A DNA stretch of 32,000 nt from Candidatus Saccharimonadota bacterium. Lineage in GTDB: Bacteria > Patescibacteriota > Gracilibacteria > BD1-5 > UBA2023. The notes under the pieces were generated by a model. The model did no database searches. It was not told the origin of the DNA and saw only the letters and a program-made list of their open reading frames with translations. Positions within the stretch are counted from its first letter, which is position 1. Every line of letters starts with the position of its first letter. The stretch covers positions 450,001-482,000 of the forward strand of contig BAAFHK010000001.1 of NCBI GenBank assembly GCA_042852035.1, read 5' to 3'. This document shows, in pieces, positions 1-17,463 of the stretch. The translations under genes and the position numbers were made by a program.

Positions 1-1
1 G

Positions 2-379
2 GAGTCCGTTGAACCTAAATTTCTTGATATAGCAATCTCTCCAGAATCCCAAAAACTGATCTCTCTTGCAATCGATATATGGAGACTAGAATGAAAAATT
101 CATAATTCATGAATATCAAAAGATTGACTTGAGGCAGAGAAGATCAAAACTAGCCTTGAGCGGTTAAAAAAATTTATGAATGACTATTGAATTGCAGTAA
201 AAGACTTCATATGAGATAAATATGTTAATGAGATTAATTTTCTTGAGCTAAAGTGAACTGAGAATACAACAGATAAATCTAAAGATTGAATAATTAAAGA
301 TACCATTGAGCCAGTAGTGTATGTCAATTGAACTGTTGTAAAAACAGCTAAGGTTATTGTTTATAAATTTATTGCTTAA
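2..379 (+). CDS. GrpE-like nucleotide exchange factor, C-terminal part (5' end lies outside the window)
   Basis: Frame 2 is open from the window edge to TAA 377-379 when TGA=Gly. The tail ...LERLKKFMNDYGIAVKDFIGDKYVNEINFLEL...DGIIKDTIEPVVYVNGTVVKTAKVIVYKF follows the GrpE helical-bundle then beta-domain pattern (G-x-x-F/Y-D/N ... GY/VY-x-x-G-x-V-x-x-x-A-x-V-x-V). It ends 10 nt before the Hsp70 start. Confidence 0.45.
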
Positions 380-389
380 AAAATCATAT

Positions 390-2891
390 ATGCCTACCAT
401 CCAAATTTGAATTGATTTATGAACCACAAATTCTGCAATTGCAATTAATAAATCAGGAAAGACCGAAATAATTAAGAATTTTGAAAGAGATGAATTTACT
501 CCTTCAGTCTACTGATTCGATAAAGCCAAGAATCCTCTTGTATGAAAGCGTGCTTATGAAAAGCTTTACAAATATGCTGATAGTGAGGATATTTGAAACT
601 TCAAATCTGAGATAAAGAGACTAATGTGAACTCCTGAAATTACTTATTTTCCAAGAGTTGAAAAAAGCATGAAAGCAGAAGATATTTCTGCTGAGATATT
701 AAAATATCTTAAAAGTACGGCACTGAAACAATATCCAGATCTTGAAACTAATTGAGTAGTTATTACAGTGCCAGCACATTTTTCAACTATAGAATCAGAA
801 GCTACTAAGAGGGCTGGTGAACTTGCTTGATTCAAAAAAGTTGTATTATTACAAGAGCCTATTGCTGCAGCAATAGCATATGGCTTTTCTGCTGATAAAA
901 ATGCAAACTGGCTCATATACGACCTCTGAGGCGGCACGTTTGATACAGCTATAATCCAATCCATGGATGGTTTATTAAATATTTTATCAAGCAAGGGAGA
1001 TAATTTTCTCTGATGAAAAGATTTTGATTGGGCTATTGTAGATAAGATATTTATTCCAAAAATCCTAGAAAAATTTAATTTACTAAATTTTAATAGAGGA
1101 AATGAAAAATACAGAAATGCATTTAACCTGTTAAAATGATTTGCTGAAAATGCTAAAAAAATGCTCACATATGATAATGAGGTTACTATTGAGATTGATA
1201 AAATTTGAATGGATGACAATGAAAAGGAAATTTATATGAATATAACTTTAACTCGAAAAGAATTTGAAGAGCTAATAAATCCTTTTATTAAGAAATCAAT
1301 ATCACTTGTAGAAGAAACTATTAAAGAATCATGAATTAGTAAAAATAAAATAGATAAGATTGTCCTTGTTGGATGAAGCACACAAACCCCTTATATTAAA
1401 GAAAAGTTAGAAAAAGAAATTGGCATCTCCGTGGACTCAAGTGTTGATCCTCTCACTGTGGTAGCATATGGAGCATCTGTATATGCACAAACTCAAGTTA
1501 TAGAAATAGAGAAAGATAATAAAAAAACTTATAATTCCGAGTTACATAATATAAAATTGAATTTCGAGACCGTTACTACTGAAAGTGAGGAAACTATAAG
1601 TGGTATAATTGACGGACTTGAGGAAAACAAGGAATACTATCTGCAAATTCAAAGTGAAAGTGGTTATTATTCAAGCAATAAGATCCTTATTAGAAATTGA
1701 AAATTTATTACAGATGTTCAAGTTGAATCAGGAAAAGTAAACCTTTATTGGATATATTTATTTGATTCATCATGATGAGTTTTAGAGCTATCTACAGATA
1801 GTTTCTCAATAACTCATGGATTAACGGTGGGAGCAATACCAATACCATCAAGTATTGGTGTGTCTATAGCGAGACAAAATAGCGATACACTGTCTTGGCA
1901 ATCAGAAATGTTTTGGTTCTTTGAAAAAAATTCAAAATTACCATTATCTAAGACTCATGAATTTAAAACAACGAGCACAATTAGAAAATGAAGTGCTGAA
2001 AATAAACTTTCCATTACTGCTTTTGAATGAGAATCACAATCTCCAAGAAATAATATCTTTATTGCTGAAATAGGAATTAACGGAAATGATATACCGTTTG
2101 ATCTTGAAGCAAATACACCAATTGATATTACTATAAACATAGATATATCCAGAGCATTAACAATCACTGCATATATTCCAAGTATGGATATATCAGTTAA
2201 TGCTCGTATGACGGTTTTAGATGAAAATATTGACTCAACTAAACTAAAGGAGGAATTAGAAAAAGAAAAAGTTAGATATGAACATATAAAAGATCATCTT
2301 ACACCTAAGCAAAAAGAAGAAATTGAGTGAGATATTTTATATATTGAATCAAGTATTGAAAGTGGAAATGATGATGCGGACTCAAAGCTAAAATCAAATA
2401 AACAACTCAAGGATCTACGAAATGAAATTGATAATCTTTGAAAAGAAACAGAATTATGAAGTTCCACTCAGGAATTTAATAATCTTATAGAATTCTTGGA
2501 TGATATTTTTAATAAGTTTACAAATCCTGATTTTGAAACACAAGAACTTATAAATAGATATAATATCATCAAAAAATGATGACTTAGGGCTATTGAAGAA
2601 CAAGATAAAGTTCTTCTTCCTGCTATAATTGAACAGCTTAATAGCTTGAAAGTTGCAATTTTCCAACATAGTTTTTGGTATTGGGAAGATTTATTTAATT
2701 CATTACTCAATGGGTGATTTGATTTTAAAGATCAAAATAATGCCGAATATTTGATTAAAAAATGAAATAGAGCAAAAGAAAATGAGGATAAAAATGAACT
2801 TGAGCAAGTAGTAAGAAATCTTATTCAGTTATTACCAACTGATGCTCGTGGGAAAATTGAGGGCTGAAATCTTTCCGGTATAACCATATAA
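390..2891 (+). CDS. Divergent Hsp70-family ATPase, 833 aa, with an extra domain between NBD and SBD and a long helical tail
   Basis: ATG 390 to TAA 2889-2891, with no TAA/TAG in frame when read codon by codon and many in-frame TGA. Motifs seen: MPTIQIGIDLGTTNS (phosphate-1), VITVPAHFSTIESEATKRAG, LLQEPIAAAIAYG, IYDLGGGTFD (TGA 927-929 at a Gly), GDNFLGGKDFD, VLVGGSTQTPYI, DPLTVVAYGASVYA. An SBD-like segment follows: SITAFEGES...IAEIGINGNDIPF...IDITINIDISRALTITAY. Confidence 0.85.
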
Positions 2892-2894
2892 ACT

Positions 2895-4967
2895 ATGATC
2901 CTAGAGAATTACTATCACATTCTTTGATTAGATATATCTGCTACGCAAAAACAAATTGATAAAAGATGAAAGGAGATATTGAAGTATCTTGCTATTTGAG
3001 ATATTCCTGATTATCCTGAAGTTGACTTTTCATTTACTAAATCCTATAGAAATGAAGCTTTCATTAAGGATGCATTAAATGGATTAAAAAATCCTAAGAT
3101 TCGTTTACAACACATATTTCTTTGGATAAATATCGAAACCGAAGCAGATAAACATATAGTAGCATTATTGCAAAATAAAAAATATGAAATAGCACTTCTG
3201 GAAATTAAGAAAATTAAAAACCTTAAAAATAAAGCGGTATTTTTACCTTTAATATTGTCTCAAAATGAAGCAATATCCATACTTTGAAAGCAAGAAGCGA
3301 TAGCTTTGTGTAAAGAGGCGATAGATTGCTGGAATCTAATTTTATTAGATGATAAAAAATGGATGAATTTTGAAAAGTCATTTTATCTTTATGACGACAT
3401 ATCAACCAATACTAGTTTAATTCAAGAATTAAGAGAGAATGCTAATAAAATTCTTGCGGATATATTTTTTGATATATCGAATATAGTAGATTCATCAGAG
3501 ATTACAAGATATTTCACAGAAATTTTTCATGTAAAGGGAACTAGATTACACTGAAAATCAGAATGACTATACCTTGAGCTTAGTAAGATTTCTGATAATT
3601 TTGAGAATATTAAAATAAGTGATGATTGAATATTTGACTCAAATGAAAAAAAGATAGTAAATAGTTGAATTAAGAAAATTCAAGATATTTTAGGTGAATT
3701 ATCTGAAATGTGACTGTGAGAAGACAGTAAGACATTAGTTATTAAAGATAAAGTTGCACATTGAATTAAATCAATTGCTTATGATCTTTGGAAAAATCTT
3801 GATACCGAAAATGAAGAGGCTATAAAGTTAATAAAAATGGCAAAAGATTTTGCCTGAACCAATTGATTGAAAGAAAGATTAAAAGAAGATATTGCAGTCA
3901 TGGAATGAGAGCAAAAACTCATGCCCATATTAACTAAACTCAATCAAATTGAAGAAAAAGATGATAATTTTGTTGAATTAGAAGATATATATAATGAAAT
4001 TAAATGAATGGAGAAGAACATTGATGTTAATGATAATAAGTTAGTCAACAATTTAAGAACTCTCAAAAGAAGAGTAGTAAATAATCTGGTATTATGAAAA
4101 TGGCTTAAATGAAGAAAATTTTATGAGGAAAAGAACTACATTAATGCCCAAAAATTATTTTGAGAAGCTGAAATATTAGCAAAACATAATGTTCATTTAT
4201 TTGATGGGATAAATGAAGAATGACTAAATAATATTATTATTTCTGTTAAGTTAAAACTTAACAATATCCGTTCCGGACAAAAATGAACTGACTACATCGA
4301 GTGAGTATTTAAAGAAATTGATGATATTCGATCCAGGGCATTAGAAAAATTATCAGAACAAGAGGGGTATTTTGTAATTGCATATATTGATTCAATATCA
4401 TATTGATTTTTATCAGAGATAAGTTTACAAAAGAAAAACAATAACAATATTTCTTCAGGAAAATGATTTCTAATAATAATTGCTGTAGTTATATGAGTAC
4501 CATGGCTAATATCATCTCTTTGAGACAATTCTTCAAGTAACTCAAAATCCTCATCCAGTTCATATTCATCACCTCAATTTGATTTATCAGATTTTAATAA
4601 AACTAATTCAACAAATAAAACAATCAATACTACTAATAATGGAAAACAAGCCGAAAAAACTCCAACAAATGATAATGTTACAGTGTGACAATATACATGC
4701 TCATCATCTAATTCAATTTACTTAAAGTCAATAGAACCAGTAGATCCTTGATTAAAAAAATTAAGTGATGAGGTTGATTCAATGCAATCAGCGTTAGACA
4801 GTACATATGTAGATCAATATTCCCAAGTGTCTGTAAACAACTATAATAAGAAAGTTAAGGCATTAAATGCAAAAATTGAGTCATATAAAGTTAAACAAAC
4901 TACGTACAATAATGCAGTTGATAAATACAATAATTATCTAGATAGAAATTGTACCAAAAGATACTAA
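2895..4967 (+). CDS. J-like domain membrane protein, 690 aa (J-like N-terminus lacking HPD, long helical region, one TM helix, Ser/Asn-rich linker, small Cys-containing C-terminal domain)
   Basis: ATG 2895 lies 3 nt after the Hsp70 stop, and the frame is open to TAA 4965-4967 under code 25. The N-terminus NYYHILGLDISATQKQIDKRGKEILKYL...AFIKDALNGLKNPKIRLQHIF matches J-domain helices I-III, but the HPD position reads AIGDIPD. A hydrophobic helix FLIIIAVVIGVPWLISSL lies at about 4467-4520, followed by SSSNSKSSSSSYSS...NKTNSTNKTINTTNN. Confidence 0.55.
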
Positions 4968-4979
4968 CAGCCTATAAAC

Positions 4980-6077
4980 ATGGAAAAACCAATTCTCTAT
5001 AATGGATATAAAATCGATTCAGAAATAAACATATCATGAAGATTAGACCGATTATTTTGAACAGAAGTATATAAGCTATCTAATAATCAATTTTTATACC
5101 TCTTTTTGGATTTAAAAGAAAATGATATAGTAAATAGAGAAATAGGATTGATTAAGTTCTCAATCAAGGATATAACATACCTTTGATTGATTGTTAATAC
5201 ATTTAATATAAAAAACCTAAGTAGCATCAAGGAAGCATTGGTATCAATTACATGATTTGATAGCATTGCTGGAATGGATTCTTTAAAATCCCATCTTCTT
5301 GAAGAGATAATAATCCCATTTAGGAATAAAGAAAAGTTTAAAAAATATAAAATATCATTACCGAATGGTTTATTATTTTATTGACCACCATGATGTGGAA
5401 AGACTTATATCTCAACAAAACTTGCAGAAGAATTAGGGTGGAATTTTATGGAAATAAAACATTCCGATATTGCCTCACCTTATATACATTGAACTGTTGA
5501 TAGAATACGACAAGTATTTGAAAAAGCCAAAATAAATACTCCTACAGTGCTATTCATTGATGAAATCTCATGACTTGTACCAAAAAGAGAGGATCTAAGC
5601 TGAGATAAAAGTCATAAAGAAGAAGAAATTAATGAATTCCTTATTAATTTAGATGAGGCATGAGAAAAGGGGATATTAGTAGTTTGAGCAACAAATTATC
5701 CAAATAAAATTGATCCAGCTATTTTGCGAACATGAAGATTTGATTTAAAGATTTTTATTTGACCACCAGATCAATCAACAAGGGTTAAATTATTTGAATT
5801 TTACCTAAATTGACGACCAATATCATCTGATATAGATTATAATACTTTGTCAGAATTAACAGAAAACTATATTGCATCAGATATTAAATTTATTGTAGAA
5901 TCTAGTGCCAAAAAAGCAGCAATAGAAGACAAACTAATATCCATGAAGGACTTAAAAGAAGGTATAGAAAATAATCAGAAATCAATATCAAATGAAGAGT
6001 TAGAATATTATGAATCAATATACTGACATGATAAAACACCTGATAAGAGTAGAAAAATTGGATTTAATGTTTGATAG
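4980..6077 (+). CDS. Classical-clade AAA+ ATPase, 365 aa (single AAA module with an unrecognised ~110-aa N-domain)
   Basis: ATG 4980 to TAG 6075-6077. Walker A is LLFYGPPGCGKT (5382-5405, both non-GGN Gly are TGA). Walker B is VLFIDEIS. The second region of homology is [28 protein letters not shown]. It lies 12 nt after the J-like gene. Confidence 0.85.
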
Positions 6078-6107
6078 TAATCATTCAGAAATAGTAAAGA
6101 AGCATTA

Positions 6108-6145
6108 ATAAAGAAAAGCTCCCAAATTTGGGAGCTTTTCTTTAT
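6108..6145. terminator. Bidirectional rho-independent terminator between convergent operons
   Basis: A 38-nt perfect palindrome, aataaagaaaagctcccaaatttgggagcttttctttatt-like (core aaaagctccca/tgggagctttt, 6114-6139). It is flanked by A-run/T-run and sits between the AAA+ stop (6077) and the minus-strand stop (6142-6144). Confidence 0.7.
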
Positions 6146-6894
6146 AGGCTTTCAATATCTATCAATAAGTACTTTCCTGTATAATTTTCTTCCAATATCT
6201 GTTTGTATTTCTCTGTTTTATGAGACCAACAGGCAATTACAAGAAATATATTCTTATTCTTGAATAATGAGAAAAAATTATCTTGCTTATTTTCTAAAAG
6301 TAGAGTTCTATAGACAAGTATTTTTTCTAAGAATTGGTTATATGAGTTTGTATTTTCTAATTCAAGACAAAATACTGTATCTCAATGTTGTAAAACAAGG
6401 TCAGGTATAGGAATAGTAAAATCAGAATATTCCTTTAGGCTTTCTTTTTCTTCTTGGGCTTTTCTCTGGAAAGTCTTGGTTCAAATTATATCATCATTTT
6501 TAGGTGTAAATTCCTTATTTTTTGATCTTATTCTATTCAATAGAACTAAAAATAGCTTTCATAATAAAATCTGATGATTATAGAGAGTAAAACTGGTGGT
6601 ATAAAAACTTGGAGTCAGGTCAATTCAGGTTTCATTTTTTATCTTCTTGAGATTATCTTTATTATTATTCAAAAGATATACTCCATATTGATTTCTATTT
6701 CTTTCTTTTGCTCATAATTCCTTAATAAACCCTGTTTTCTTGAGCATAGAGAGTCTCAAGATGAAAGTTCTATGAAGTGTATCAGGAGAGACTATTTTTC
6801 CTATGGTATCTGATTTACAGAAACCTATTTCATTGAGGATATGGAAAATCTGTAAATCTCTTTTTGTTAGCTGGATATTTGGTTTATTTTTCAT
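6142..6894 (-). CDS. Replication-relaxation (Replic_Relax)-like protein: N-terminal wHTH plus PD-(D/E)xK-like C-terminal region, 250 aa
   Basis: ATG at 6894 to TAA at 6142-6144 under code 25. The N-terminus MKNKPNIQLTKRDLQIFHILNEIGFCKSDTIGKIV...RLSMLKKTGFIKE matches the typical LT-x-RD-x-x-IL wHTH. The C-terminus has YNHQILL...IPDLVLQHGDTVFCLELENTN, a nuclease-fold-like motif. Its start overlaps the upstream ATPase stop by 11 nt. Confidence 0.45.
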
Positions 6895-8386
6895 AGTTGG
6901 TTATTGAATTAGAGAGTAATATATTTCTGAAGACTTTTTCTTTAAAATCTCATGAAAATCCAGAAATAGTCTGAACCCCTATATCAATAGTATCAAACAC
7001 AATATAAAAATTTCATCTATTTAAATTTGCTATATCTTTTTCTATTAATTCTTGTTCTGTTCATGCATTAATGATAGGGAGAAAGAAACTTCATTGTTCT
7101 GGGGGAAGGGAAAATATGATAAAAACTCAAAGATTGTTTAAAAGATCCTTTAATTCATATGAAACTGATTGATAAGCCAATATATATACTATTGAGAATT
7201 TTCTCAATTCATTAAATGCTTTTTCCAATAAATCTATAAATGGATTCTTTTCCCCCTTAATAGAGAGAAAACTTTGAAATTCATCTACAACTACATAATG
7301 TTTTGCTAGTTTTGGATTGGTATGATTTTTTCTACTACCATAAAAATATGAAGTTGATATAAGAAATGCTATTATTATCCTTCTTTCATCCATAGAAAAA
7401 TCAGCCAGATTAAATGTATAGATTCTTATCATTTCTTTTTGTGTCCTCATCATTTCCTGAAGATCAAGTGTAAGAGCTAACATTGGGACATTAAATCAAA
7501 ATGTATCACCAAGTTCATAGGAAAATACTTTAAGCTTAGTAATGGCAGTGTCATAATAAGAAGGATCTTTCTGAATATTTTTCTCCATATAGAGAAAATG
7601 CTGGTCAAGCATTTGTGCTTTTGCTTTTAAGTCTGGATATTCTGAGTAAGCAATTCACTTGATAGCTTCTTGGATATAAGCTGGAGATTTCTTACTTTTT
7701 TGAAGGTAATCGAAATAGAGAAAAATATCTTTAAGGCTATAAAATCAGCCTGTATCTCATATTCTGAGTTTTAAAGCATTGAACAAGAGAAAGGCATCTA
7801 CTATTCATTCAATAGCAGATGTATTTTTTGGTCAAAAGGAAGACCAATCAAAACAACCTTTCAAAGAAGATATAATATTATTTGTATGAATATTCAGAAG
7901 AGTGAGATCATTCCTCAGGTCAAGACAGAGAAGAGGGTTGAATCTCAGCCTTTTTTGCATTATATTTCCCTGATAAAAGAAATTCTGATTTCAAGTATGA
8001 GGGTTTTCTATATTTTTCTTATATTCATAGGTTTCTATGGTTTCATATGCTCTGTTTAAAGACACTGATATAACTTGCTCTGTTTCAGGATTTTTAGTAC
8101 TTGGATGATCTTCCAGAGGAGGTATAAAATCCCTAAGTAACTGGAACAATGGTGGAAGAAATGAATTATGTGGATCAATCAAGATATAGGTATCTCAATT
8201 CTTTTCCAGAAAAGAGGATTTGATATATCAAAAAATAGAAGATACCATAGTATAGGTTTTTCATGAACCACTTTTTCAGAAGATTCAGATATGTGAAGTT
8301 TTCAATGAATTATTATTCATGGTAATAAGAGATGTATCTTCTTTAAGAGAAGAGTTATAGGTTTTTCAAATTATTATTTTGGACAT
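6884..8386 (-). CDS. FtsK-HerA superfamily P-loop ATPase (T4SS coupling-protein/TraD-VirD4-like or HerA/DUF87-like), 500 aa, with no TM segment seen
   Basis: ATG at 8386 to TAA at 6884-6886, read codon by codon under code 25. Walker A is SHIGIFGKSGSGKT (about 8255-8278), followed by YILIDPHNSF. Walker B is HYVVVDEFQSF. The arginine/glutamine region is ELRKFSIVYILAYQSVSYEL. Confidence 0.6.
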
Positions 8387-8423
8387 AGGTTTTTAAAGTT
8401 AATGGATAGGGAAATATTGAACT

Positions 8424-9308
8424 TTATCTTTCAATAAAATTATGCTGATACAATTGAACATTTGGAGACACAATAGGAACTCATTGGTTTTCAGTAAATG
8501 TATTAGAGAGTGGAATTATCAATCATTGAGATAATAATGCCTCTCCTTGGAGCAATCTATGAGAAGATGGTATGTAGTCCCATATTTTCTTTTTTTCCTT
8601 CAAAAAATAAGAATTATAAGATGATGAATAGAGGGAAAGGTTCTTATCAATAATATTTTTAGTATTACCATAAGCAGTATTCCATTCCCAAGACCATCTT
8701 AAACTGAAGAAGTTCTGGGTATCTGTAAAAGATTTATAGAAGCTCTCTTTTTCTTCTTCTCCCATATGTTTGGATTTTGATGAATAGAGATAATCCTTGT
8801 AGAACATAGAATAGCTTCATTTGGAAAATGAAAATGATACTTTTACTGTATCTCTATCATTGATAAAGGGCAGAAGTTCCTGAAATGTAGAACCAATAAT
8901 AGAAGAGGAAGTACTAAAATTATCTCATCAAAGGGCTCATAACTTTTTGATCTGAAGGACTCCATGACTACTTAATCCAGTTTGATAACAATGAATATAT
9001 GATTGTCATTGTATGAGTTGAGTATTTACATGGGTTGAAAAAGAACACTTCTTGTTATAAAGCTTAGTAAAGAAATTGATTAAATAACTCAATCCTTCTT
9101 CATTATTAGAAGTAACATATTGATCAATCTTTACTATTCATTTTTCCTTGAATAAATAGGTTTCTAATCCGAACCAAAGATCAGGAATCCATAGGGAATT
9201 AATATCTGATTTAATGGAATTCATGAGCATTCCATCATCCTCAATTCTTGATGGAAAAATCTTCAAATAGTAAATTCACTGATGACAAAAAATAGGAAGT
9301 GAAAACAT
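8424..9308 (-). CDS. Hypothetical protein, 294 aa, first gene of the minus-strand operon
   Basis: ATG at 9306-9308 to TAA at 8424-8426, verified open codon by codon under code 25. I recognised no motif. The sequence is rich in aromatic residues and Ser. Confidence 0.5.
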
Positions 9309-9415
9309 AAAGGTAAAAAAATTAAAAAGTAAAATGGTCGTATGACCAAATAATCATTATATTAATTTTTCAACTTCATGGATTTTTTTCTATATGTCTC
9401 AAGTTATGACTCAAC

Positions 9416-9550
9416 ACATACCCCTCACTTCTATATCTTACCTTTACCTAATATAAAAAGAGGCTGGGTAGTCATAGCCTATCGCCTCTGACTACCCAGC
9501 CTCTAACCACATATATATTAGGTGGTAAGTAGATAGTGAAGGGTATGGGA
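9416..9550. repeat. Long imperfect palindrome with a perfect 16-bp core stem
   Basis: Core stem: agaggctgggtagtca (9459-9474) pairs with tgactacccagcctct (9489-9504), with a 14-nt loop. Outer arms: catacccctcacttctatatcttacctttacctaatata pairs with tatattaggtggtaagtagatagtgaagggtatgg, with small indels. Confidence 0.8.
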
Positions 9551-9616
9551 ATTAATAGTAATATAACTATAGAAATAATAATATATAATAAGTAGTATAA
9601 GTAATATTAGGTTAGT

Positions 9617-9654
9617 GGGATGGGAATGGGGCAGGGGACATGGGGCGACGGGGA
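9617..9654 (+). other. G-tract cluster (six runs of G3-4) in an otherwise A+T-rich intergenic region
   Basis: The sequence gggatgggaatggggcaggggacatggggcgacgggg is read directly. On the minus strand it is a C-rich, G-poor tract. Confidence 0.8.
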
Positions 9655-9804
9655 CTAGGAACACGAGTGAGATAAGAAAATAACAAACTGGAATGAAGAA
9701 ATAACAAAAATTAAAACATAGATAATTAATATTTGAATTATTGAAGGTATATTTTTTTATTATCGCTTATAGCCCGAACGAATCATAGGAAATTAAAAAA
9801 TGTT

Positions 9805-9832
9805 TTGACTTCACTTGTCAAAATGATAGAAT
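9805..9832 (+). promoter_or_regulatory. Sigma70-like promoter for the orphan-recombinase operon
   Basis: TTGACT (9805-9810), a 16-nt spacer, then TAGAAT (9827-9832) preceded by TGa (extended -10). The -35 lies inside the inverted repeat TTGAC-N7-GTCAA. The promoter is about 48 nt upstream of ATG 9880. Confidence 0.4.
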
Positions 9833-9879
9833 ATGTATGTCAATTTGTTAGAACTTCTATTTTTTTATACCATACTATC

Positions 9880-10524
9880 ATGGCAACAATGACTAGGGAA
9901 GAGCAGTTAAAATTAAAGGAAGAACAACTTTTTAGTATTTTTGAAAAAAGAATGAAATGAGGGGGAGTAAAAAGTCCTGAAGATTTATGATTCAAAAAGA
10001 GTGACATTATTAATGGGATAAATAGACTAAAATGATGATTCATGAGTCTGGTAAATTTCTCTCCTGAAGTAACCATCCTCAATATTTCATCACAACCTGA
10101 GCTATTAAAAGAGTATCTTAGTGCAATATTTTGATGACTTAATAAAACCTCTGATAAGAAAATATCTCATGATTTTGATTGAATCCTAGAAAAGATAGAT
10201 TCTGAAAATCCAGATAATATGCTCAGTTCATTTATTTATGACTCAATCTCATATTTCCAAGAAAATCCAATCAGCATCACTGATAGTGACTTGGGTTACA
10301 AAGAACTAAAGCTAGCTCAAGATCTCTCTAAAAGGATTGTAAATTGACCTTATAAGATTACAAAGCAAGAACCTGAAATAGAAGCAGAAAATATAGATGT
10401 ACATAAGCTTGTAAAGCTACTTGTTGAGGAAAATCCATCCCTGAGTCAAAGAGATGTAATAAATATATTAAAGAAGCTCTACTGAGTGGAAAAGCTTAAT
10501 GAACTATTGTCCAAGAATAATTAA
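9880..10524 (+). CDS. Hypothetical protein, 214 aa, upstream of the recombinase
   Basis: ATG 9880 to TAA 10522-10524 is open under code 25. I recognised no motif. It lies 10 nt upstream of the recombinase start. Its position suggests a regulatory or directionality role, but that is only inference. Confidence 0.45.
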
Positions 10525-10534
10525 TTTAAACTTT

Positions 10535-12451
10535 ATGGAAAAAGTACTACTTTATGCAAGAAGAAGTAATAAGAAGAATCAAGACAGAGCCATTTCAATT
10601 GAGAAACAATTGGAGGCAATGAGACATTATTGTCATGAAAAATGATATGAGATTGTTGAGGAATTCCATGAAATTCAAAGTAGTTTCAAGGAATGAAAAA
10701 GAATTCAATATGATAAACTCCTTACTGAGATTAAAAATAGAAATGTAAACTGAAAATGAGAAAAAATAGATAAACTCATTGTATATATTGCTTCAAGACT
10801 TTGTAGAAACTCTCAGGAAGCCTTTGAACTTCAATTATTGGTGGAGAATGAAATAGTTATAATAGAAAGTGTAACAGAAAACTTCTGACATACACTTGCA
10901 TGAAAGAGAATGCTAATCAATGCTCTTACTGCTGCTATTTATGAAAGCAAAGAGAAAAGTACTGAAGGAAAAAAGAATATGGATCTCACCTACTCAAGAT
11001 GAGAGGTTGCCTGAGTAGCACCATTCTGATATAAAAAGATTTCCAAGAAGGAGATAGTAACTGTTCCAGAAGAACAAAAGATAGTACAGAAAATATTTGA
11101 TCTTTATAAGACTTGAAAATATACCTTTGAAAAAGTTGCTAATGAGTTAAATAATCTGGGATATATAAAACATAAGAAAGTAAGACCAAGAAATGAGGAT
11201 GGTATAAGAACTATCCTAAAGCCCATTCCAATGAAATTCAATGCAAAAGATATTGAGAATATACTTATCAAAGGGTTTTACTATGGACATATAGATGTAA
11301 CCTATAAAAATCTTACTAAGGAAGAAATAGAATACTTTAAAACAAGGTATCCAGACATTAGTAGTAGCTCAAAAAAGACAATTACTATAGATTATACTCA
11401 TGCAATTCAACTCCATAAACCTTATGATTTTTTCATAGATGAAGAAACTTTTCAAGAATGCTATAGAATTAGATCAGGAAAGGATAAAAAAAAACTTCAA
11501 TTAGTTAGAACTGAAGCTTTAGATGAGGATAAAATTCATCCATGGAGATGAATTCTGAAGTGTTGATGTCAGATGCATGAAGGAAAGAATCCACTTCATT
11601 TACTGAGCTTTACTTCTGAAAAGAAGAAAGGTAAGTATATCTACTATAGATGTAGTTGATTATCAAGAAAAATTGAATGATCAGAAGAACCTGAAAAGCT
11701 CTGTATATCAAAGACTATTAACCAAAAGGAAGTGGAAGAATTACTAAAGCCAGTCCTAGAGCAGTTAGTTTTTACAGATGAAGAAATTAAGATATTTAAA
11801 GATATATTCTTATTGAGTCTTCAAGATGAAAAGAAAACCAAGGAACAAGTTATTCTAGAATTAAAGAATGATATAGCTAGTCAGCAGGGAATAAAGGATG
11901 CATTCATGAAGCAATACAGAGAAGAAACTTTTGCTCCAGTTAAAGAAGATATAAAAAAGGATATAGAGACAACAATGAAACATATAGAGCTACTTCAGAG
12001 TACACTTGAGAAAGAAGAGAATTCAGAGGATTCTAATGATGAAGTGGCAGATATTAAATTATATTTAGAAAGAGTAAAAGACCTAAAAAGTGTAATCAAT
12101 GAACCTATACCTTCAAAAAAACAAAAGAGACTACAATCAATATTTGATTATGTAGTCATATACAATGGCAATCTATTGGACTATAAACTCAATCCTGTAT
12201 TAGAATACCTTCTTAGATGCAATATAAAAAGTTCTACCATTGATAATTGAGACTCTCATAATGAGATTATCAAGGTAGAACCTAAAGAAAGCTGAACTGA
12301 AAGCCAAGAACATTTCCCCTTGTTAGGGGCTACCCCAGAGGGTAGCCCCGCTCAGAATCGAACTGAGGTTCTCGGCTTTGGAGACCGATGTACTAACCGC
12401 TGTACGACAGGGCTAAATATACCAGGAAATTCCTGGTATAAAGACTACTAG
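10535..12451 (+). CDS. Large serine recombinase (resolvase catalytic domain, recombinase domain, zinc ribbon, coiled coil). 638 aa under code 25, or 571 aa if TGA 12248-12250 terminated.
   Basis: The N-terminus MEKVLLYARRSNKKNQDRAISIEKQLEAMRHYC carries the catalytic Ser in the YARRS context. The recombinase domain shows VAPFGYKK. The zinc ribbon is LKCGCQMHEG...YYRCSG...LC, followed by a long charged helical region. There are many internal TGA codons. The first TAA/TAG in frame is TAG 12449-12451. Confidence 0.85.
12343..12414 (-). tRNA. trnW: tRNA-Trp (anticodon CCA)
   Basis: The reverse complement folds as a cloverleaf. Acceptor: AGCCCTG/CGGGGCT. Then U8. D arm: GTAC-AGCGGTTA-GTAC. Anticodon arm: TCGGT-CTCCAAA-GCCGA. 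Variable loop: GAAC. T arm: CTCAG-TTCGATT-CTGAG. Discriminator: A. The 3' CC is encoded but not a full CCA. Confidence 0.85.
12421..12437 (-). promoter_or_regulatory. Hairpin between the tsf stop and the tRNA-Trp 5' end (possible weak terminator or processing site)
   Basis: accaggaa-a-ttcctggt is a perfect 8-bp inverted repeat. It lies 10 nt after the tsf stop and 6 nt before the tRNA 5' end. Confidence 0.35.
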
Positions 12452-13236
12452 ATAGAATATCTTACGAAAGATACAACATTTCCAGCACCGATAAATTCAC
12501 CAACTTTCTGATCAGGATTAACAACAAATGGTTGAGTAAGGAGAGCATTCTCTTCACGGAACTTTGTCATTTTTCCCTCAATAATCTTTGAAAGAATTTC
12601 ATCTGGTTTTCCTGCATTCTTTGGATCTTGCTTCATGATTTCAAGTTGGATTTCACGCTCTTTTGCAACTACATCATCAGATATGTCAGTAGGAGAAACT
12701 ACCTGAGGAGCGGCAGCTACGATATGCATAGCTACTTGTTTTAATTTATCTACATCTGTTCCAGATTTTGCTACGACAACAGAAGCATTTTTCCAGTTAG
12801 AGTGAACATAAGAAGTGATAACTTCACCAGAAATTTCTGTAAGCACTTTGATTACCATATTTTCACCAACTTTGAGTGTATATTCACTTGCCTTAAGTTC
12901 TTCTGCCTTAGTAATTGCTTCCTCATCAGAGGCTGCTGATTTGCGGATATCAATAAAGTGAGAAAGCATTGCTTCAAAAGTCTCATTGCGAGCAACAAAG
13001 TCAGTCTCACAAGTAACAACAGCAACGTATGCCTTTGATCCTTCAACAACAATTTTAATTTTTCCTTCGTTTGTTTCATTTCCTGCGCGCTTAGCCGCCT
13101 TTGCAAGACCTTTTTTTCTAAGAAGATCAATTGCTGCTTCCATATCTCCATTTGCATCAACAAGGGCATTTTTACAGTCAGACATACCAACTCCTGTTCT
13201 TTCTCGGAGTTCTTTAATCATTTGAGGAGTTACCAT
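12448..13236 (-). CDS. tsf: Elongation factor Ts
   Basis: An uninterrupted 262-aa ORF. It has the UBA-like N-terminus MIKELRERTGVGMSDCKNALVDANGDMEAAIDLLRKKG, plus ETDFVARN and the dimerisation/core regions. It is in rpsB-tsf synteny. Confidence 0.95.
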   Translation of the reverse strand: MVTPQMIKELRERTGVGMSDCKNALVDANGDMEAAIDLLRKKGLAKAAKRAGNETNEGKIKIVVEGSKAYVAVVTCETDFVARNETFEAMLSHFIDIRKSAASDEEAITKAEELKASEYTLKVGENMVIKVLTEISGEVITSYVHSNWKNASVVVAKSGTDVDKLKQVAMHIVAAAPQVVSPTDISDDVVAKEREIQLEIMKQDPKNAGKPDEILSKIIEGKMTKFREENALLTQPFVVNPDQKVGEFIGAGNVVSFVRYSI

Positions 13237-13264
13237 AGAGATTCAATTTTAAAAGTTAAATATT

Positions 13265-13606
13265 TTATTTTGTAGAAAACCACTTTCCGATACCAAAAAC
13301 TTGGATAAGCTTATCTGCCTGCTCAAGTATAATTTGTATTACGTATTCCTTCCCACTAAAAGCCTGGAAGGCAAGCCAAAGAGAGACAAGAACGCAAATA
13401 AAATTTAAGAAACTCGCAATTCACATCATACCCCAAAGGAGTGACGAAACGAGAGCAAGAACAAATTCAACAATATTTATAAGAAATCCCTGTTTCATAT
13501 ACTTTACCACAAATGGGGTACGTATATTCATAAGAAACGGTACGAAGAAAGCTATAGAAGCAAATGCTGCGGCAAGCTTTTCTTGTCCTGAACGAGAATC
13601 TTCCAT
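13265..13606 (-). CDS. Small multi-pass membrane protein (DUF4870-like), 113 aa
   Basis: ATG at 13606 to TAA at 13265-13267, with one in-frame TGA (13421-13423). It has hydrophobic helices. The N-terminal QEKLAAAFASIAFFVPFLMNIRTPFVVKYMKQ pattern resembles DUF4870. Confidence 0.45.
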
Positions 13607-13624
13607 ATAAAAATAGCTTAAAGA

Positions 13625-14392: not shown

Positions 14393-14479
14393 AAGAAAAA
14401 AGTGTAAAAAAATAATCCTTAACGGGAAGTTTTGTGAGGTACGAGGCACACATAATGCGAGGAAGTACCCTTCTGTATC

Positions 14480-14524
14480 AAAAAATCCCAACTCGAACTC
14501 TCATTTTCCGAGAATGAGTCGGGA
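14480..14524 (-). terminator. Rho-independent terminator after the methyltransferase gene
   Basis: Minus-strand stem CCCGACTC...GAGTTGGG with an inner helix, followed by a TTTTTT run. It lies between the methyltransferase stop (14594) and the rpsB start. Confidence 0.55.
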
Positions 14525-14593
14525 TGATTATAGAGAAAAATAGGGAAAATCAAGTATTTATTCGATGCATTATTTCAGGAAGTCTAAAAGTAA

Positions 14594-15187: not shown

Positions 15188-15200
15188 ACTACAATTCTTG

Positions 15201-15228
15201 TATATACGAATTATAGTATGTTTGTCAA
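15201..15228 (-). promoter_or_regulatory. Candidate promoter for the methyltransferase gene
   Basis: Minus strand: TTGACA (15228-15223), a 16-nt spacer, then TATATA (15206-15201). It lies about 14 nt upstream of the ATG. The AT-rich background makes chance matches likely. Confidence 0.3.
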
Positions 15229-15247
15229 TTAATCTTATTTAGCTTTA

Positions 15248-17442: not shown

Positions 17443-17463
17443 AGTGAAAATGAAAAAAAATAA

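What the first reader, a model, noticed from the sequence alone, without database searches (positions are those of the whole stretch)
1..6077. Four-gene GrpE-like / divergent Hsp70 / HPD-less J-like membrane protein / AAA+ ATPase cassette is a candidate undescribed chaperone-based system
Seen: four same-strand genes are separated by only 10, 3 and 12 nt and end at a strong bidirectional terminator, so they are almost certainly one operon. Each is a diverged version of a chaperone part. The first has a GrpE-like C-terminus. The second is an 833-aa Hsp70 that keeps the ATPase motifs but has an inserted domain. The third resembles a J domain without the HPD tripeptide and is anchored by one TM helix. 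The fourth is a single-module classical AAA+ ATPase with an unrecognised N-domain. Established: housekeeping grpE-dnaK-dnaJ encodes a roughly 600-640 aa DnaK and an HPD/Gly-rich/zinc-finger DnaJ, with no AAA+ gene. HscC with membrane-anchored DjlB/DjlC is the closest known analogy, and it lacks a GrpE and an AAA+ partner. Inference: this is an accessory Hsp70 machine coupled to an unfoldase or segregase at the membrane. It sits in A+T-rich, TGA-dense DNA next to a recombinase-bearing element, so it could be mobile-element cargo with a role in defence, host interaction or secretion-substrate handling. I cannot confirm novelty without searches.
Basis: partly seen in the sequence, partly recalled or inferred. 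Interest (0 to 1): 0.85.

Follow-up and report, generated by a model that had tools for sequence, protein, structure and literature searches.

The report
Mobile membrane-tethered Hsp70 chaperone cassette
A mobile element in a bacterium that reads TGA as glycine carries a conserved, apparently undescribed Hsp70 chaperone set with its own exchange factor, an atypical membrane co-chaperone and an AAA+ unfoldase; its role is unknown, possibly protection against phages.

Summary
With TGA read as glycine (code 25), window 1-6077 encodes four intact same-strand genes with gaps of 10, 3 and 12 nt, ending at a 17-bp hairpin.

- g1 is a GrpE-like protein. It lacks 34 codons at the window edge, and relatives have an N-terminal membrane anchor.
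- g2 is an 833-aa Hsp70 with an intact ATPase site and a ~100-aa insertion. The residues that receive the DnaJ HPD motif are replaced.
- g3 has an HPD-less J-like N-terminus, a TPR-like solenoid, one TM helix and a Cys-bracketed ectodomain.
- g4 is a classical AAA+ ATPase.

The same gene order recurs in 57 species-level genomes. Most are candidate phyla radiation (CPR) bacteria; others include Omnitrophota, Proteobacteria, Bdellovibrionales and two archaea. Usually the membrane module of g3 is a separate gene. That gene carries an N-terminal "LDIDLEFLDK" tag, which alternative Yip1 or RDD membrane partners share.

The cassette sits next to tRNA genes, large serine recombinases and terminase genes. 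In the window it lies in a low-GC island bounded by tRNA-Trp. It is therefore mobile-element cargo, not the housekeeping dnaK operon.

No Pfam, NCBIfam, PADLOC or PHROG model and no paper found describes it. Function is inferred; a conflict or defence role is plausible but unproven.

The parts
2..379 (+). g1: GrpE-like nucleotide-exchange-factor homologue, 3' 125 codons. The first ~34 codons, including an N-terminal TM helix, lie beyond the window edge.
   Evidence: Pfam GrpE matches 31 of 33 family members, best 2.8e-9, on profile positions 88-162 of 165. The window copy alone gives no hit. A relative with about 90% g1 identity (L068) has a 159-aa g1 with an N-terminal TM helix. dN/dS is 0.06.
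390..2891 (+). g2: 833-aa Hsp70-family ATPase (whole gene)
   Evidence: Pfam HSP70 2.5e-79. NCBIfam DnaK scores 271 bits against a cut-off of 648, so it is not an equivalog. More than 120 full-length homologues of 832-849 aa were found. dN/dS is 0.04.
390..1526 (+). g2 nucleotide-binding domain. Catalytic residues are intact; the residues that contact the J-domain HPD are replaced.
   Evidence: D8, T11, K70, E171, D194, T199 and D201 (DnaK numbering) are conserved. R167 is V/A, N170 is Q, T173 is I and R151 is S/A across the family. HscC keeps all four.
1527..1835 (+). g2 inserted domain of ~100 aa between the NBD and the beta substrate-binding domain, including the conserved YYIQIQSESG and WIYLFD motifs
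   Evidence: BLASTP against HscC shows the offset. The family profile has no PDB sequence match for these columns. The region is highly conserved.
1836..2213 (+). g2 beta substrate-binding domain
   Evidence: BLASTP against the HscC SBD gives 4e-8. The family profile matches the substrate-binding domain and helical lid of human Hsp70 and DnaK at E ~1e-3.
2214..2888 (+). g2 extended helical C-terminal region: the lid plus ~140 extra residues, ending in SGIT
   Evidence: The distal part has no PDB sequence match.
2895..3134 (+). g3 N-terminal J-like region without HPD (YYHILGL...KEILKYLAIGDIPDY...ALNGLKNPK)
   Evidence: Family-wide motif; HPD is present in only 2 of 102 representatives. Pfam DnaJ matches 7 of 33, best 0.015. 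Three of the four PDB hits are J domains, E 0.18-0.56. hhalign gives probability 65%, E 6e-5. AF2 pLDDT is low here.
3135..4463 (+). g3 all-helical TPR-like solenoid (cytoplasmic scaffold)
   Evidence: AF2 model of homologue P0200: mean pLDDT 81, 23 helices. Foldseek finds only generic TPR or solenoid proteins, E > 1e-3. No Pfam family matches.
4464..4523 (+). g3 transmembrane helix (GFLIIIAVVIGVPWLISSLG)
   Evidence: Hydropathy scan.
4524..4964 (+). g3 extracytoplasmic module: Ser-rich linker plus a coiled-coil hairpin bracketed by Cys602 and Cys686. In most relatives this is a separate gene.
   Evidence: It is fused in 10 loci and a separate 160-340-aa gene in at least 30 loci. The separate form carries the N-terminal FLD tag; the fused form does not.
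4980..5264 (+). g4 N-terminal domain (~95 aa, beta sheet plus helix), fold unassigned
   Evidence: No PDB sequence match. AF2 pLDDT is 70. The best Foldseek matches are protein-kinase N-lobes, E 0.035, not significant. The Haliscomenobacter relative has a full kinase domain at this position, but hhalign between the two is not significant.
5265..6077 (+). g4 classical-clade AAA+ module: Walker A GPPGCGKT, Walker B FIDEIS, pore loop YIHG, AAA lid
   Evidence: Pfam AAA 3.7e-34, with a weak AAA_lid_3 match (5.5e-4, 19.9 bits, below the 27.2-bit cut-off). NCBIfam CDC48 5.7e-50 and FtsH 1.1e-47, both below cut-off. PADLOC IetA 4.9e-38 on the AAA module only.
6108..6145 (.). Bidirectional terminator-like hairpin (17-bp stem, A-run and T-run) that closes the operon and the convergent gene
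   Evidence: -27.2 kcal/mol, z = -6.8.
6142..12451 (.). Rest of the low-GC island: three minus-strand genes (250 aa; 500-aa HerA/DUF87-type P-loop ATPase; 294 aa), a 263-aa plus-strand gene, and a large serine recombinase at 10535-12451
   Evidence: Pfam DUF87 1.4e-8; Resolvase, Recombinase and Zn_ribbon_recom. GC is 27-31% against 31-39% to the right.
12340..12415 (-). tRNA-Trp (CCA) at the island-chromosome boundary
   Evidence: ARAGORN. The genes to its right are tsf, rpsB, gatB, carA and gyrB.

Best explanation
The region encodes a self-contained accessory Hsp70 machine that works at the cytoplasmic face of the membrane. It is carried as cargo by an integrative mobile element.

Shown.
- g2 is an ATPase-competent Hsp70 with a ~100-aa insertion and an extended tail. 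It comes with its own GrpE-like exchange factor (g1), which is membrane-anchored in relatives.
- g3 is a scaffold. It has a J-like N-terminus that lacks HPD, a TPR-like solenoid, a TM helix and a Cys-bracketed coiled-coil ectodomain.
- g4 is a classical AAA+ ATPase with a pore loop.
- The Hsp70 has replaced the residues that read the HPD of canonical J domains. It is therefore probably insulated from the host's DnaJ proteins and paired with its own partner.
- In most relatives the membrane module is a separate gene with an N-terminal cytoplasmic tag (h-x-h-E/D-F-L-D). Alternative Yip1 and RDD membrane proteins in the same operon position share this tag. In the window the tag is replaced by direct fusion to the scaffold.

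Inferred.
- The scaffold docks the tagged membrane protein or proteins and recruits the Hsp70.
- GrpE-like g1 resets the Hsp70 cycle.
- The AAA+ ring unfolds or extracts a client at the membrane.
- Because the cassette travels on integrative elements, its most likely role is a conflict function that benefits the element. That could be exclusion of, or an abortive response to, incoming phages or other elements. The ectodomain or the chaperone would act as sensor and the membrane proteins as output.

Likelihoods. I put about 0.9 on 'dedicated accessory Hsp70 system carried by mobile elements'. I put about 0.4 on the conflict or defence role.
For: Code 25 and intact genes under purifying selection: and dN/dS 0.04-0.06.

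Domains.
- HSP70 2.5e-79 and AAA 3.7e-34.
- GrpE in 31 of 33 family members.
- J-like motif.
- TPR-like AF2 model.
- Insertion and SBD.
- Catalytic residues kept while R167, N170, T173 and R151 are replaced.

Conserved gene order in 57 species-level genomes of many phyla at 35-85% identity (best tblastn segment) over the C-terminal 460 residues. Full-length g2 is 46-65% identical to homologues from other lineages. The g3 family has 196 clusters at 50% identity with E <= 1e-30.

Fusion versus separate membrane module.

Tag present in 47 of 59 membrane partners against 3 of 1081 other proteins, p = 3e-68, and absent from fused g3.

Mobile context.
- GC step and tRNA-Trp boundary with core genes beyond it.
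- Serine recombinase in the window and in 24-25 of ~58 loci.
- Terminase in 9 loci, DNA methylase in 10, and an Xre-type HTH just upstream of g1 in 14.
- tRNA genes 0.1-0.9 kb upstream of g1 in at least 8 loci.
- Defence genes nearby in several loci: AbiEii, SLFN_AlbA_2, HsdM, UvrD, Fic, HsdR.
- A distant variant sits beside BREX on a plasmid.

No existing model or paper was found (9, 20, 36, 63, 86, 112). A 2026 review calls bacterial DnaK derivatives unexplored 'dark matter'.
Against: - No recognisable effector (nuclease, NADase, protease or pore former) is a fixed part of the cassette.
- Defence genes among the nearest neighbours are present but not dominant.
- Only one IMG/VR contig and no INPHARED phage carry the cassette.
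- The J-like assignment is weak. Pfam matches are below threshold and AF2 confidence is low for residues 1-60.
- The GrpE match covers only the C-terminal half, and the window copy itself does not score.
- The g4 N-domain could not be assigned.
- I could not check whether the same genome has a canonical dnaK-dnaJ-grpE.
- The pattern-based genome scan under-detects genomes that use TGA for Gly, so the frequency in the window's own lineage is uncertain.
- No interaction or phenotype has been measured.
Confidence: 0.55

Rival explanations
1. The cassette serves the mobile element's own life cycle. It would act as a private chaperone set for replication-complex remodelling, particle assembly, packaging or release at the membrane, much as lambda depends on host DnaK, DnaJ and GrpE. 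It would not be a defence function.
For: The cassette makes up a large share of compact islands that also hold a serine recombinase, small and large terminase genes and a DNA methylase. It is strongly conserved. Its hosts are often CPR bacteria with reduced genomes.
Against: - Many loci have no terminase or recombinase within 10 kb.
- Variants occur on conjugative and non-mobilisable plasmids and beside BREX.
- Almost no viral contigs carry the cassette, and no PHROG family matches it.
- The membrane anchoring and the variable tagged membrane partners are not explained.
Confidence: 0.2
2. The cassette is a host-beneficial membrane proteostasis or trafficking module. It would insert, extract or control the quality of particular membrane or surface proteins, for example those used in episymbiotic or predatory contact. 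It would spread by transfer because it is useful.
For: - The GrpE-like and J-like partners are membrane-anchored, and the clients carry tags.
- The architecture resembles organelle import motors (own knowledge).
- Carriers are enriched in host-dependent or predatory lineages: CPR, Bdellovibrionales, Omnitrophota, Vampirococcus and DPANN.
- Prepilin-peptidase-like and S49 peptidase genes lie nearby in some loci.
Against: - The cassette is rare and patchy even within those lineages.
- It lies at island edges beside integrases and tRNAs.
- The only candidate clients are the tagged proteins encoded in the operon itself.
- Free-living Proteobacteria and plasmids also carry it or its variants.
Confidence: 0.15
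3. The cassette is simply the highly diverged housekeeping grpE-dnaK-dnaJ set of a fast-evolving bacterium that uses an altered genetic code.
For: No canonical dnaK lies in the 32-kb window. I could not search the rest of the genome. In two Gracilibacteria assemblies hrcA lies about 2.3 kb upstream of the cassette.
Against: - The window copy lies in a low-GC island bounded by tRNA-Trp and a serine recombinase, next to core genes.
- The same cassette at 46-50% full-length identity occurs in Gammaproteobacteria, Akkermansia, Omnitrophota and archaea.
- It was detected in only 57 of 185,579 species genomes.
- It scores far below the NCBIfam DnaK cut-off.
- It lacks an HPD J protein and the residues that read HPD.
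- In the hrcA case a tRNA-Cys separates the host genes from the cassette.
Confidence: 0.03
4. The cassette is a member of an Hsp70-containing conflict system that has already been described. The candidates are the GAP1-N2 GTPase-centred systems with Hsp70, GrpE and DnaJ fusions (Kaur et al. 2020) and the CoCoNuT CnuD Hsp70-like proteins linked to McrBC.
For: Those systems show that Hsp70, GrpE and DnaJ domains are used in conflict loci.
Against: - No GTPase, tubulin, FNIII, McrB or McrC gene is conserved with the cassette.
- CnuD proteins have degenerate ATPase motifs, whereas g2 keeps all catalytic residues.
- PADLOC has no match for g1, g2 or g3.
Confidence: 0.02

Closest known systems
E. 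coli HscC with membrane-anchored J proteins DjlB and DjlC
   Same: It is a specialised non-housekeeping Hsp70 encoded next to dedicated partner proteins. Those partners have an N-terminal J-type domain, a helical middle part and a C-terminal membrane anchor. DjlB and DjlC also depart from HPD; they read HPE in the MG1655 sequence.
   Different: - HscC is 556 aa with a short lid, no insertion and intact R151, R167, N170 and T173.
- The g3 family profile has no detectable homology to DjlC.
- The HscC locus has no GrpE-like gene and no AAA+ gene.
- NBD identity is only 30%.
Housekeeping DnaK-DnaJ-GrpE with the ClpB disaggregase
   Same: It combines an Hsp70, a J-type partner, a GrpE-type exchange factor and a co-operating AAA+ unfoldase.
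   Different: - This AAA+ is a single-ring classical-clade ATPase, not a two-ring ClpB; it scores only 9.3e-5 against the ClpA model.
- The J-like partner lacks HPD, the Gly-rich region and the zinc finger.
- The partners are membrane-anchored.
- All genes lie in one operon on a mobile element.
- DnaK equivalog cut-offs are not met.
Mitochondrial presequence translocase motor: mtHsp70, Pam18, the HPD-less J-like Pam16, Tim44 and Mge1 (own knowledge)
   Same: It is a works-like analogy. An Hsp70 is held at a membrane by anchored J and J-like proteins and is served by a GrpE homologue.
   Different: There is no evidence of common descent beyond the shared domains. No translocon gene is present. 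An AAA+ partner is present here. The resemblance was not tested.
IetA, the AAA+ ATPase of the Ietat anti-phage system
   Same: g4 matches PADLOC IetA models at 4.9e-38 and is of similar size.
   Different: - The match covers only the generic AAA module.
- NCBIfam IteA scores 114 bits against a cut-off of 510.
- CDC48 and FtsH models score higher.
- No IetS protease partner is present.
Hsp70-containing conflict systems: GAP1-N2 GTPase systems (PMC7159879) and CoCoNuT CnuD (PMC11090510)
   Same: Hsp70, and sometimes GrpE and DnaJ domains, are recruited into mobile or defence loci.
   Different: The core partners differ: GTPases and FNIII proteins, or McrBC. None of these is linked to this cassette.
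Distant variants of the same superfamily on plasmids: Haliscomenobacter hydrossis pHALHY02 and Pseudomonas hygromyciniae pSDM007
   Same: - Both have an ~835-aa Hsp70 that aligns across the insertion and tail.
- The Haliscomenobacter partner has a g3-like N-terminus (hhalign 95%); the Pseudomonas partner shares a g3 core segment (76%).
- The Haliscomenobacter AAA+ is 46% identical to g4.
- A bitopic coiled-coil membrane protein is present.
   Different: - In Haliscomenobacter the AAA+ carries a full protein-kinase domain, and a TerB gene is added.
- In Pseudomonas the gene order differs and no AAA+ gene is present. The 117-aa gene only looks GrpE-like by eye; hhalign is not significant.
- All of these genes are annotated only as 'Hsp70 family', 'AAA family ATPase' or hypothetical.

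Membership tests
Hsp70 superfamily (PF00012) | Actin-like nucleotide-binding domain with catalytic D8, K70, E171, D194, T199 and D201 | tested here: met
   Pfam 2.5e-79. All catalytic residues are conserved in the window copy and nine relatives.
Hsp70 superfamily (PF00012) | Beta-sandwich substrate-binding domain followed by a helical lid | tested here: met
   BLASTP against the HscC SBD gives 4e-8. The family profile matches the substrate-binding domain and lid of human Hsp70 and DnaK at 7.5e-4 to 4e-3.
Canonical DnaK (housekeeping equivalog) | Score above the NCBIfam DnaK equivalog cut-off, ~600-640 aa, NBD joined directly to the SBD | tested here: not met
   271 bits against a cut-off of 648, matching the NBD only. 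The protein is 833 aa with a ~100-aa insertion.
Canonical DnaK (housekeeping equivalog) | Residues that receive the J-domain HPD signal (R167, N170, T173, R151) | tested here: not met
   They are replaced by V/A, Q, I and S/A across the family. HscC retains them. The role of these residues is taken from my own knowledge of the DnaK-DnaJ literature.
Canonical DnaK (housekeeping equivalog) | It is the only, or the core, Hsp70 of the genome | not testable with these tools
   Only 32 kb of the genome is available, and no dnaK lies in it.
GrpE (PF01025) | C-terminal four-helix-bundle and beta-sheet region that contacts the Hsp70 NBD | tested here: met
   31 of 33 family members match PF01025, best 2.8e-9, on profile positions 88-162 of 165. 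The window copy alone does not score but aligns throughout.
GrpE (PF01025) | Long N-terminal paired helix of the GrpE dimer | tested here: not met
   The N-terminal half of the Pfam profile is not matched. A TM helix and a short linker take its place.
J-domain proteins (PF00226) | His-Pro-Asp tripeptide between helices II and III | tested here: not met
   The position reads x-P-[E/D], for example IDDxPEY. HPD occurs in 2 of 102 representatives.
J-domain proteins (PF00226) | Four-helix J fold and sequence profile | tested here: inconclusive
   Pfam matches 7 of 33, best 0.015, below the gathering score. PDB J domains score E 0.18-0.56. hhalign gives probability 65% over 56 columns. AF2 predicts helices at 3-12, 21-34, 56-67 and 69-77, but pLDDT is 46-67.
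HscC-DjlB/DjlC system | Homology of the partner protein to DjlB or DjlC | tested here: not met
   hhalign of the g3 family against DjlC gives probability 0.1%.
Classical AAA ATPases (PF00004) | Walker A, Walker B, AAA lid and a pore-loop aromatic residue | tested here: met
   Pfam AAA 3.7e-34, with a weak sub-threshold AAA_lid_3 match (5.5e-4). GPPGCGKT, FIDEIS and YIHG were located.
Ietat defence system (IetA and IetS) | IetA equivalog score and an adjacent IetS serine protease | tested here: not met
   NCBIfam IteA scores 114 bits against a cut-off of 510. No protease gene is in the operon.
GAP1-N2 GTPase-centred Hsp70/GrpE/DnaJ conflict systems | A linked GAP1-type GTPase and an FNIII-repeat protein | tested here: not met
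   None appears among the conserved neighbours or in the family counts. The system definition is from PMC7159879.
Known anti-phage defence systems (PADLOC 2.0) | A match to any system model for the specific components | tested here: not met
   g1, g2 and g3 give no hit at E <= 0.1. Only generic AAA matches were found for g4.

The most novel reading that the evidence does not exclude
The cassette is a new class of anti-phage or anti-element immunity carried by mobile elements and built on a private Hsp70 cycle. A chaperone insulated from host J proteins, with its own membrane-anchored exchange factor and an HPD-less scaffold, would sense infection. The signal could come from the ectodomain or from a flood of foreign client proteins. 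The chaperone would then hand tagged membrane proteins to an AAA+ unfoldase to trigger exclusion or abortive infection. The system would be shared across bacteria and archaea, including CPR lineages thought to be poor in defence systems.
Probability: 0.35. Interest if true: 0.9.

Novelty: new variant of a known kind. Interest (0 to 1): 0.74.

Why it matters
Apart from HscA, and to a lesser degree HscC, bacterial DnaK derivatives are functionally unexplored; a 2026 review calls them 'dark matter' (PMC13580251).

This cassette is a clean, recurrent case of a complete private Hsp70 cycle packaged in one operon. It holds an ATPase, an exchange factor, a J-like scaffold, an AAA+ partner and tagged membrane partners, and it moves between phyla on integrative elements.

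Two features are of direct interest to chaperone biochemists. One is the matched loss of HPD in the partner and of the residues that read HPD in the Hsp70. This suggests a way to insulate a chaperone from the host network. The other is a short shared tag on alternative membrane partners, which gives a binding hypothesis that can be tested at once.

If the role is immunity, it would add a chaperone-based mechanism to the defence repertoire. It would also show that CPR bacteria carry more defence than is currently assumed. Standard-code orthologues from Gammaproteobacteria and plasmid variants in cultured Pseudomonas and Haliscomenobacter make experiments feasible.

Tried and rejected
- Table 11 and table 4 readings were rejected. 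TGA sits on invariant glycines.
- Direct Pfam, NCBIfam and PADLOC scans of the window's g1 and g3 found nothing.
For the same reason, structures had to be predicted from homologues.
- The profile of the g1 family against PDB sequences gave no GrpE hit, although Pfam did.
- The g3 family against DjlC showed no homology.
- Foldseek of the g3 model returned only generic TPR or solenoid matches.
- The g4 N-domain gave no PDB sequence hit. Foldseek gave kinase N-lobes at non-significant E. hhalign against the Haliscomenobacter kinase domain was not significant. I therefore do not assign this fold.
- The word-indexed search with the g4 N-domain returned only 25 fragments, which limited the depth of the model's alignment.
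- The viral contig scan found 1 locus. The INPHARED phage search found none. PHROGs had no family for the cassette-specific parts.
- CoCoNuT CnuD and the GTPase-centred Hsp70 systems were considered and rejected.
- Eight of the ten allowed literature searches and targeted reads of eight papers found no description (11, 12, 87, 105, 106, 113).
- The simple terminator scan missed the hairpin; folding confirmed it.

Full report
**1. Checking the observation**

Under the standard bacterial code, window 1-8000 has no ORF longer than 191 aa. When only TAA and TAG are treated as stops, four long same-strand ORFs fill 1-6077. In-frame TGA codons fall on invariant glycines of the Hsp70 phosphate loops (IGIDLGTTNS, LGGGTFD) and of the AAA+ Walker A motif (GPPGCGKT).

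The genes are g1 2-379 (partial), g2 390-2891 (833 aa), g3 2895-4967 (690 aa) and g4 4980-6077 (365 aa). The gaps are 10, 3 and 12 nt. The operon ends at a perfect 17-bp hairpin at 6108-6145, flanked by an A-run and a T-run. It folds at -27.2 kcal/mol, z = -6.8, and faces a convergent gene. Against a relative whose g2 is 93% identical, dN/dS is 0.04 for g2 and 0.06 for g1, at dS of about 0.8-0.9. The genes are therefore functional.

**2. The four proteins**

*g2.* Pfam HSP70 matches only residues 6-379 (2.5e-79). NCBIfam DnaK and HscA models score far below their cut-offs. BLASTP against E. coli HscC aligns the NBD at 30% identity and then picks up the beta substrate-binding domain about 100-130 residues later than in HscC. 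A profile of the C-terminal 460 residues matches the substrate-binding domain and lid of human Hsp70 and DnaK in its middle part. The first ~135 and last ~140 columns match nothing. So g2 consists of an NBD, a ~100-aa insertion, an SBD-beta, a lid and an extra helical tail.

All catalytic residues are kept. The positions that in DnaK receive the J-domain HPD signal are not: R167 is V/A, N170 is Q, T173 is I and R151 is S/A in the window copy and in all nine relatives examined. HscC keeps all four. The role of those residues comes from my own knowledge of the DnaK-DnaJ literature.

*g1.* The window copy gives no family hit. An alignment of 33 homologues shows an N-terminal hydrophobic helix and a conserved C-terminal half. 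Pfam GrpE matches 31 of the 33, best 2.8e-9, always on the C-terminal part of the profile. A relative with about 90% g1 identity has a 159-aa g1 with a clear TM helix and a sigma-70-like promoter upstream. The window therefore lacks the first 34 codons. Some Gracilibacteria copies lack the TM helix.

*g3.* No Pfam, NCBIfam or PADLOC family matches. All database homologues are annotated as hypothetical. The N-terminus is strongly conserved: NNAYxILGL-x3-AS-QKEI-KR-KEI-x3-LKIDDxPEY ... A-QKL-PKKR. This parallels helices I to III of a J domain, with x-P-[E/D] in place of HPD. HPD occurs in only 2 of 102 representatives.

Support for homology to J domains is moderate.
- Pfam DnaJ matches 7 of 33 members, best 0.015.
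- Three of the four PDB sequence hits are J domains, at E 0.18-0.56.
- hhalign against an alignment of J domains gives probability 65%, E 6e-5 over 56 columns.

An AlphaFold2 model of a homologue is an all-helical solenoid with mean pLDDT 81, but confidence is low for residues 1-60. Foldseek returns only generic TPR-like proteins. E. coli DjlC is not detectably related.

In the window, the solenoid is followed by a TM helix (aa 524-543) and a 147-aa ectodomain. The ectodomain has a Ser-rich linker and a coiled-coil hairpin bracketed by Cys602 and Cys686.

*g4.* This is a classical-clade AAA+ module. Pfam AAA scores 3.7e-34; CDC48 and FtsH models score 1e-47 to 1e-50, below their cut-offs. It has Walker A and B motifs, a lid and a YIHG pore loop. 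The PADLOC IetA match (4.9e-38) covers only this generic module.

The 95-aa N-domain has no PDB sequence match. Its model (pLDDT 70) is a small beta sheet plus a helix. The best Foldseek matches are protein-kinase N-lobes at non-significant E of 0.035 or more.

**3. Recurrence**

A search with g2 found more than 120 full-length homologues of 832-849 aa. They share 46-90% identity as scored against stored translations. The closest, listed at 90%, is 93% identical when both are read with code 25.

A scan of one genome per species (185,579 species) found 57 loci. Most are Patescibacteria/CPR: Saccharibacteria, Parcubacteria, Uhrbacteria, Peregrinibacteria and Gracilibacteria. Others are Omnitrophota, Gammaproteobacteria, Bdellovibrionales, Elusimicrobia, Akkermansia, Acholeplasmataceae, a melainabacterium, a Woesearchaeote and a Methanoregulaceae archaeon.

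My own ORF calling and iterated profile searches on these loci show the same order almost everywhere: g1, g2, g3, then zero to two membrane-protein genes, then g4. Counts are g2 in 59 loci, g3 in 57, g1 in 56 and g4 in 52, out of 59 loci. An exhaustive profile search finds 196 g3-family clusters at 50% identity with E <= 1e-30.

The scan patterns contain glycines and an I/V position that differs in the window's lineage. Genomes that use code 25 are therefore probably under-counted.

**4. A fifth component and a shared tag**

The TM-plus-ectodomain module is fused to g3 in 10 loci, including the window. In at least 30 loci it is a separate gene of 160-340 aa directly after g3. That is a Rosetta-stone argument that the scaffold and the membrane module act together.

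The separate proteins begin with a short cytoplasmic motif, for example KDHLDIDLEFLDKKEP. The Yip1-family and RDD-family multi-pass membrane proteins that occupy the same operon position in other loci carry the same motif. It is present in 47 of 59 such proteins: bitopic 34 of 45, Yip1 8 of 8 and RDD 5 of 6. It is present in 3 of 1081 other proteins in the same loci (Fisher p = 3e-68). It is absent from the fused g3 proteins.

I read this as a docking tag for one of the soluble components. The TPR-like scaffold is the obvious candidate, but this is inference.

**5. Context**

In the window, positions 1-12,000 have 27-32% GC and the rest 32-40%. Gene by gene, the island genes have 27-31% GC and use TGA for 50-100% of glycine codons. 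The genes to the right have 31-39% GC and use TGA less. Both parts use code 25.

The island also holds a HerA/DUF87-type ATPase and a large serine recombinase at 10535-12451. It ends at tRNA-Trp, 12340-12415. Beyond that lie tsf, rpsB, gatB, carA and gyrB, all above the NCBIfam cut-offs.

In the related loci the recurrent neighbours are:
- a large serine recombinase in 24-25 of ~58 loci;
- a 104-aa DUF6804 membrane protein in 25 loci, directly after g4 in about 20 and upstream of g1 in the rest;
- an Xre-type HTH gene just upstream of g1 in 14;
- a DNA methylase in 10;
- a large terminase in 9 and a small-terminase-like gene in 7.

tRNA genes lie 0.1-0.9 kb upstream of g1 in at least eight loci. 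Several loci show the compact arrangement methylase, terS, terL, serine recombinase, cassette.

Defence genes occur nearby in some loci: AbiEii, SLFN_AlbA_2, HsdM, UvrD, SoFic, a restriction-modification pair, Fic, Bro-N and HsdR. They do not dominate.

Only one IMG/VR contig and no INPHARED phage carry the cassette.

Distant variants sit on plasmids of cultured bacteria.
- In Haliscomenobacter hydrossis pHALHY02 the operon runs: a g3-like protein (hhalign 95%), a DivIC-like bitopic protein, an 841-aa Hsp70, an AAA+ 46% identical to g4 but fused to a full protein-kinase domain, and TerB. It lies next to BREX.
- In Pseudomonas hygromyciniae pSDM007 the operon runs: a 706-aa TPR protein sharing a g3 segment, a 117-aa gene and an 833-aa Hsp70.

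**6. Interpretation**

What is shown: this is a conserved, horizontally mobile operon. It encodes a complete private Hsp70 cycle plus an AAA+ ATPase, with two or more components anchored in the membrane.

It is not the housekeeping set, for four reasons: its island context, its patchy spread across phyla, its failure to meet DnaK equivalog thresholds, and the matched loss of HPD and of the residues that read it.

What is inferred: how the parts assemble and what the system is for.
- The scaffold docks the tagged membrane proteins and recruits the Hsp70.
- GrpE-like g1 resets the Hsp70 cycle.
- The AAA+ ring unfolds or extracts a client at the membrane.

Its position as cargo at the edges of integrative elements next to integrases is the classic site of exclusion and defence genes. 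I therefore favour a conflict role, at about 0.4. The rivals are a helper function in the element's own life cycle (0.2), a host-beneficial membrane proteostasis or trafficking role (0.15), a diverged housekeeping set (0.03), and membership of already described Hsp70 conflict systems (0.02).

**7. Comparison with what is known, and novelty**

The nearest characterised analogue is HscC with DjlB and DjlC. It shares the design but not the partner family, the insertion, the GrpE-like gene or the AAA+ gene. The DnaK-ClpB pair and the mitochondrial import motor are functional analogies only. IetA, the GTPase-centred Hsp70 systems and CoCoNuT CnuD fail their defining features.

No Pfam, NCBIfam, PADLOC or PHROG model covers g1-g3 as a system. 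Eight full-text literature searches and targeted reads of eight papers found no description. A 2026 review states that bacterial DnaK derivatives other than HscA and HscC are unexplored.

I class the cassette as a new variant of a known kind, namely specialised Hsp70 systems with dedicated co-chaperones. There is a real chance that it is a new type of mobile-element-borne immunity.

**8. Limits**

- I could not search the window's own genome for a canonical dnaK.
- Structures had to be predicted from homologues, because the tools check sequences against a table-11 translation.
- The J-like and kinase-lobe resemblances are weak.
- No interaction or phenotype has been measured.

Noticed in passing
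window 6142-12451 and 12340-12415: The cassette lies in a low-GC island of at least 12.4 kb (27-31% GC, against 31-39% in the genes to its right). The island ends at tRNA-Trp(CCA). It also holds a large serine recombinase (10535-12451), whose code-25 reading frame runs through the tRNA gene, a 500-aa HerA/DUF87-type ATPase (6884-8386, minus strand), and three genes with no family match. The left end of the island lies beyond the window.
   Followed up: partly
window 1-32000: Both the island and the chromosome use TGA as a glycine codon, but to different degrees. TGA makes up 50-100% of glycine codons in the island genes and 0-55% in the chromosomal genes. The element therefore appears adapted to hosts that use code 25.
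   Followed up: partly
window 12448-28662: The chromosomal side encodes core genes: tsf (12448-13236, minus), rpsB (13625-14491, minus), gatB (18419-19861), carA (19893-21008), a 1063-aa gene that looks like carB (21039-24230; not scanned) and gyrB (26752-28662, minus). No dnaK, dnaJ or grpE lies in the window.
   Followed up: partly
L001 14104-15435; L014 13031-13633; L020 13026-14272; L009 12997-14581 and other loci: Three unrelated kinds of membrane protein sit between g3 and g4: a bitopic protein with a Cys-bracketed ectodomain, Yip1-family proteins and RDD-family proteins. They share an N-terminal cytoplasmic motif, such as LDIDLEFLDKK. It occurs in 47 of 59 of them against 3 of 1081 other proteins. 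It is absent where the membrane module is fused to g3, as in the window.
   Followed up: yes
L014 14797-20398; L025, L022, L057, L028: A compact module recurs next to the cassette in about 9 loci from different lineages. It holds a ParB-like or N6/N4 DNA methylase, a small-terminase-like HTH protein, a large terminase and a large serine recombinase, often with a tRNA gene on the other side. No portal or capsid genes follow the terminase within the fetched DNA. This may be a satellite-like or otherwise unusual integrative element.
   Followed up: partly
L067 (Haliscomenobacter hydrossis pHALHY02) 5076-12601: A distant variant of the system has its AAA+ ATPase, 46% identical to g4, fused to a complete Ser/Thr protein-kinase domain. 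It also has a DivIC-like bitopic protein and a TerB gene, and it lies directly beside a BREX system (brxL, pglZ).
   Followed up: partly
L066 (Pseudomonas hygromyciniae pSDM007) 5271-10251: A conjugative IncP-type plasmid of a cultured Pseudomonas carries a three-gene relative: a 706-aa TPR protein that shares a g3 core segment, a 117-aa protein that looks GrpE-like by eye, and an 833-aa Hsp70. An IS66 element follows. This could be an experimentally tractable entry point.
   Followed up: partly
L001 16646-16960 and 24 other loci: A ~104-aa multi-pass membrane protein of family DUF6804 is present in 25 of ~58 loci, directly after g4 in about 20 of them and upstream of g1 in the rest. It may be a further optional component. 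It is absent from the window.
   Followed up: no
L069 1244-16210 and L070: In two Gracilibacteria assemblies the cassette follows hrcA, aroA and a tRNA-Cys. After it come Fic, Bro-N and a type I restriction HsdR gene. hrcA usually heads the canonical dnaK operon, so its nearness is curious, but the tRNA separates it from the cassette.
   Followed up: no
L025 and L055: Two loci labelled Peribacteria gave only 0.33-0.35 long-ORF coverage under table 11. They may use a recoded TGA or be mixed. I treated them as recoded without further checks.
   Followed up: no
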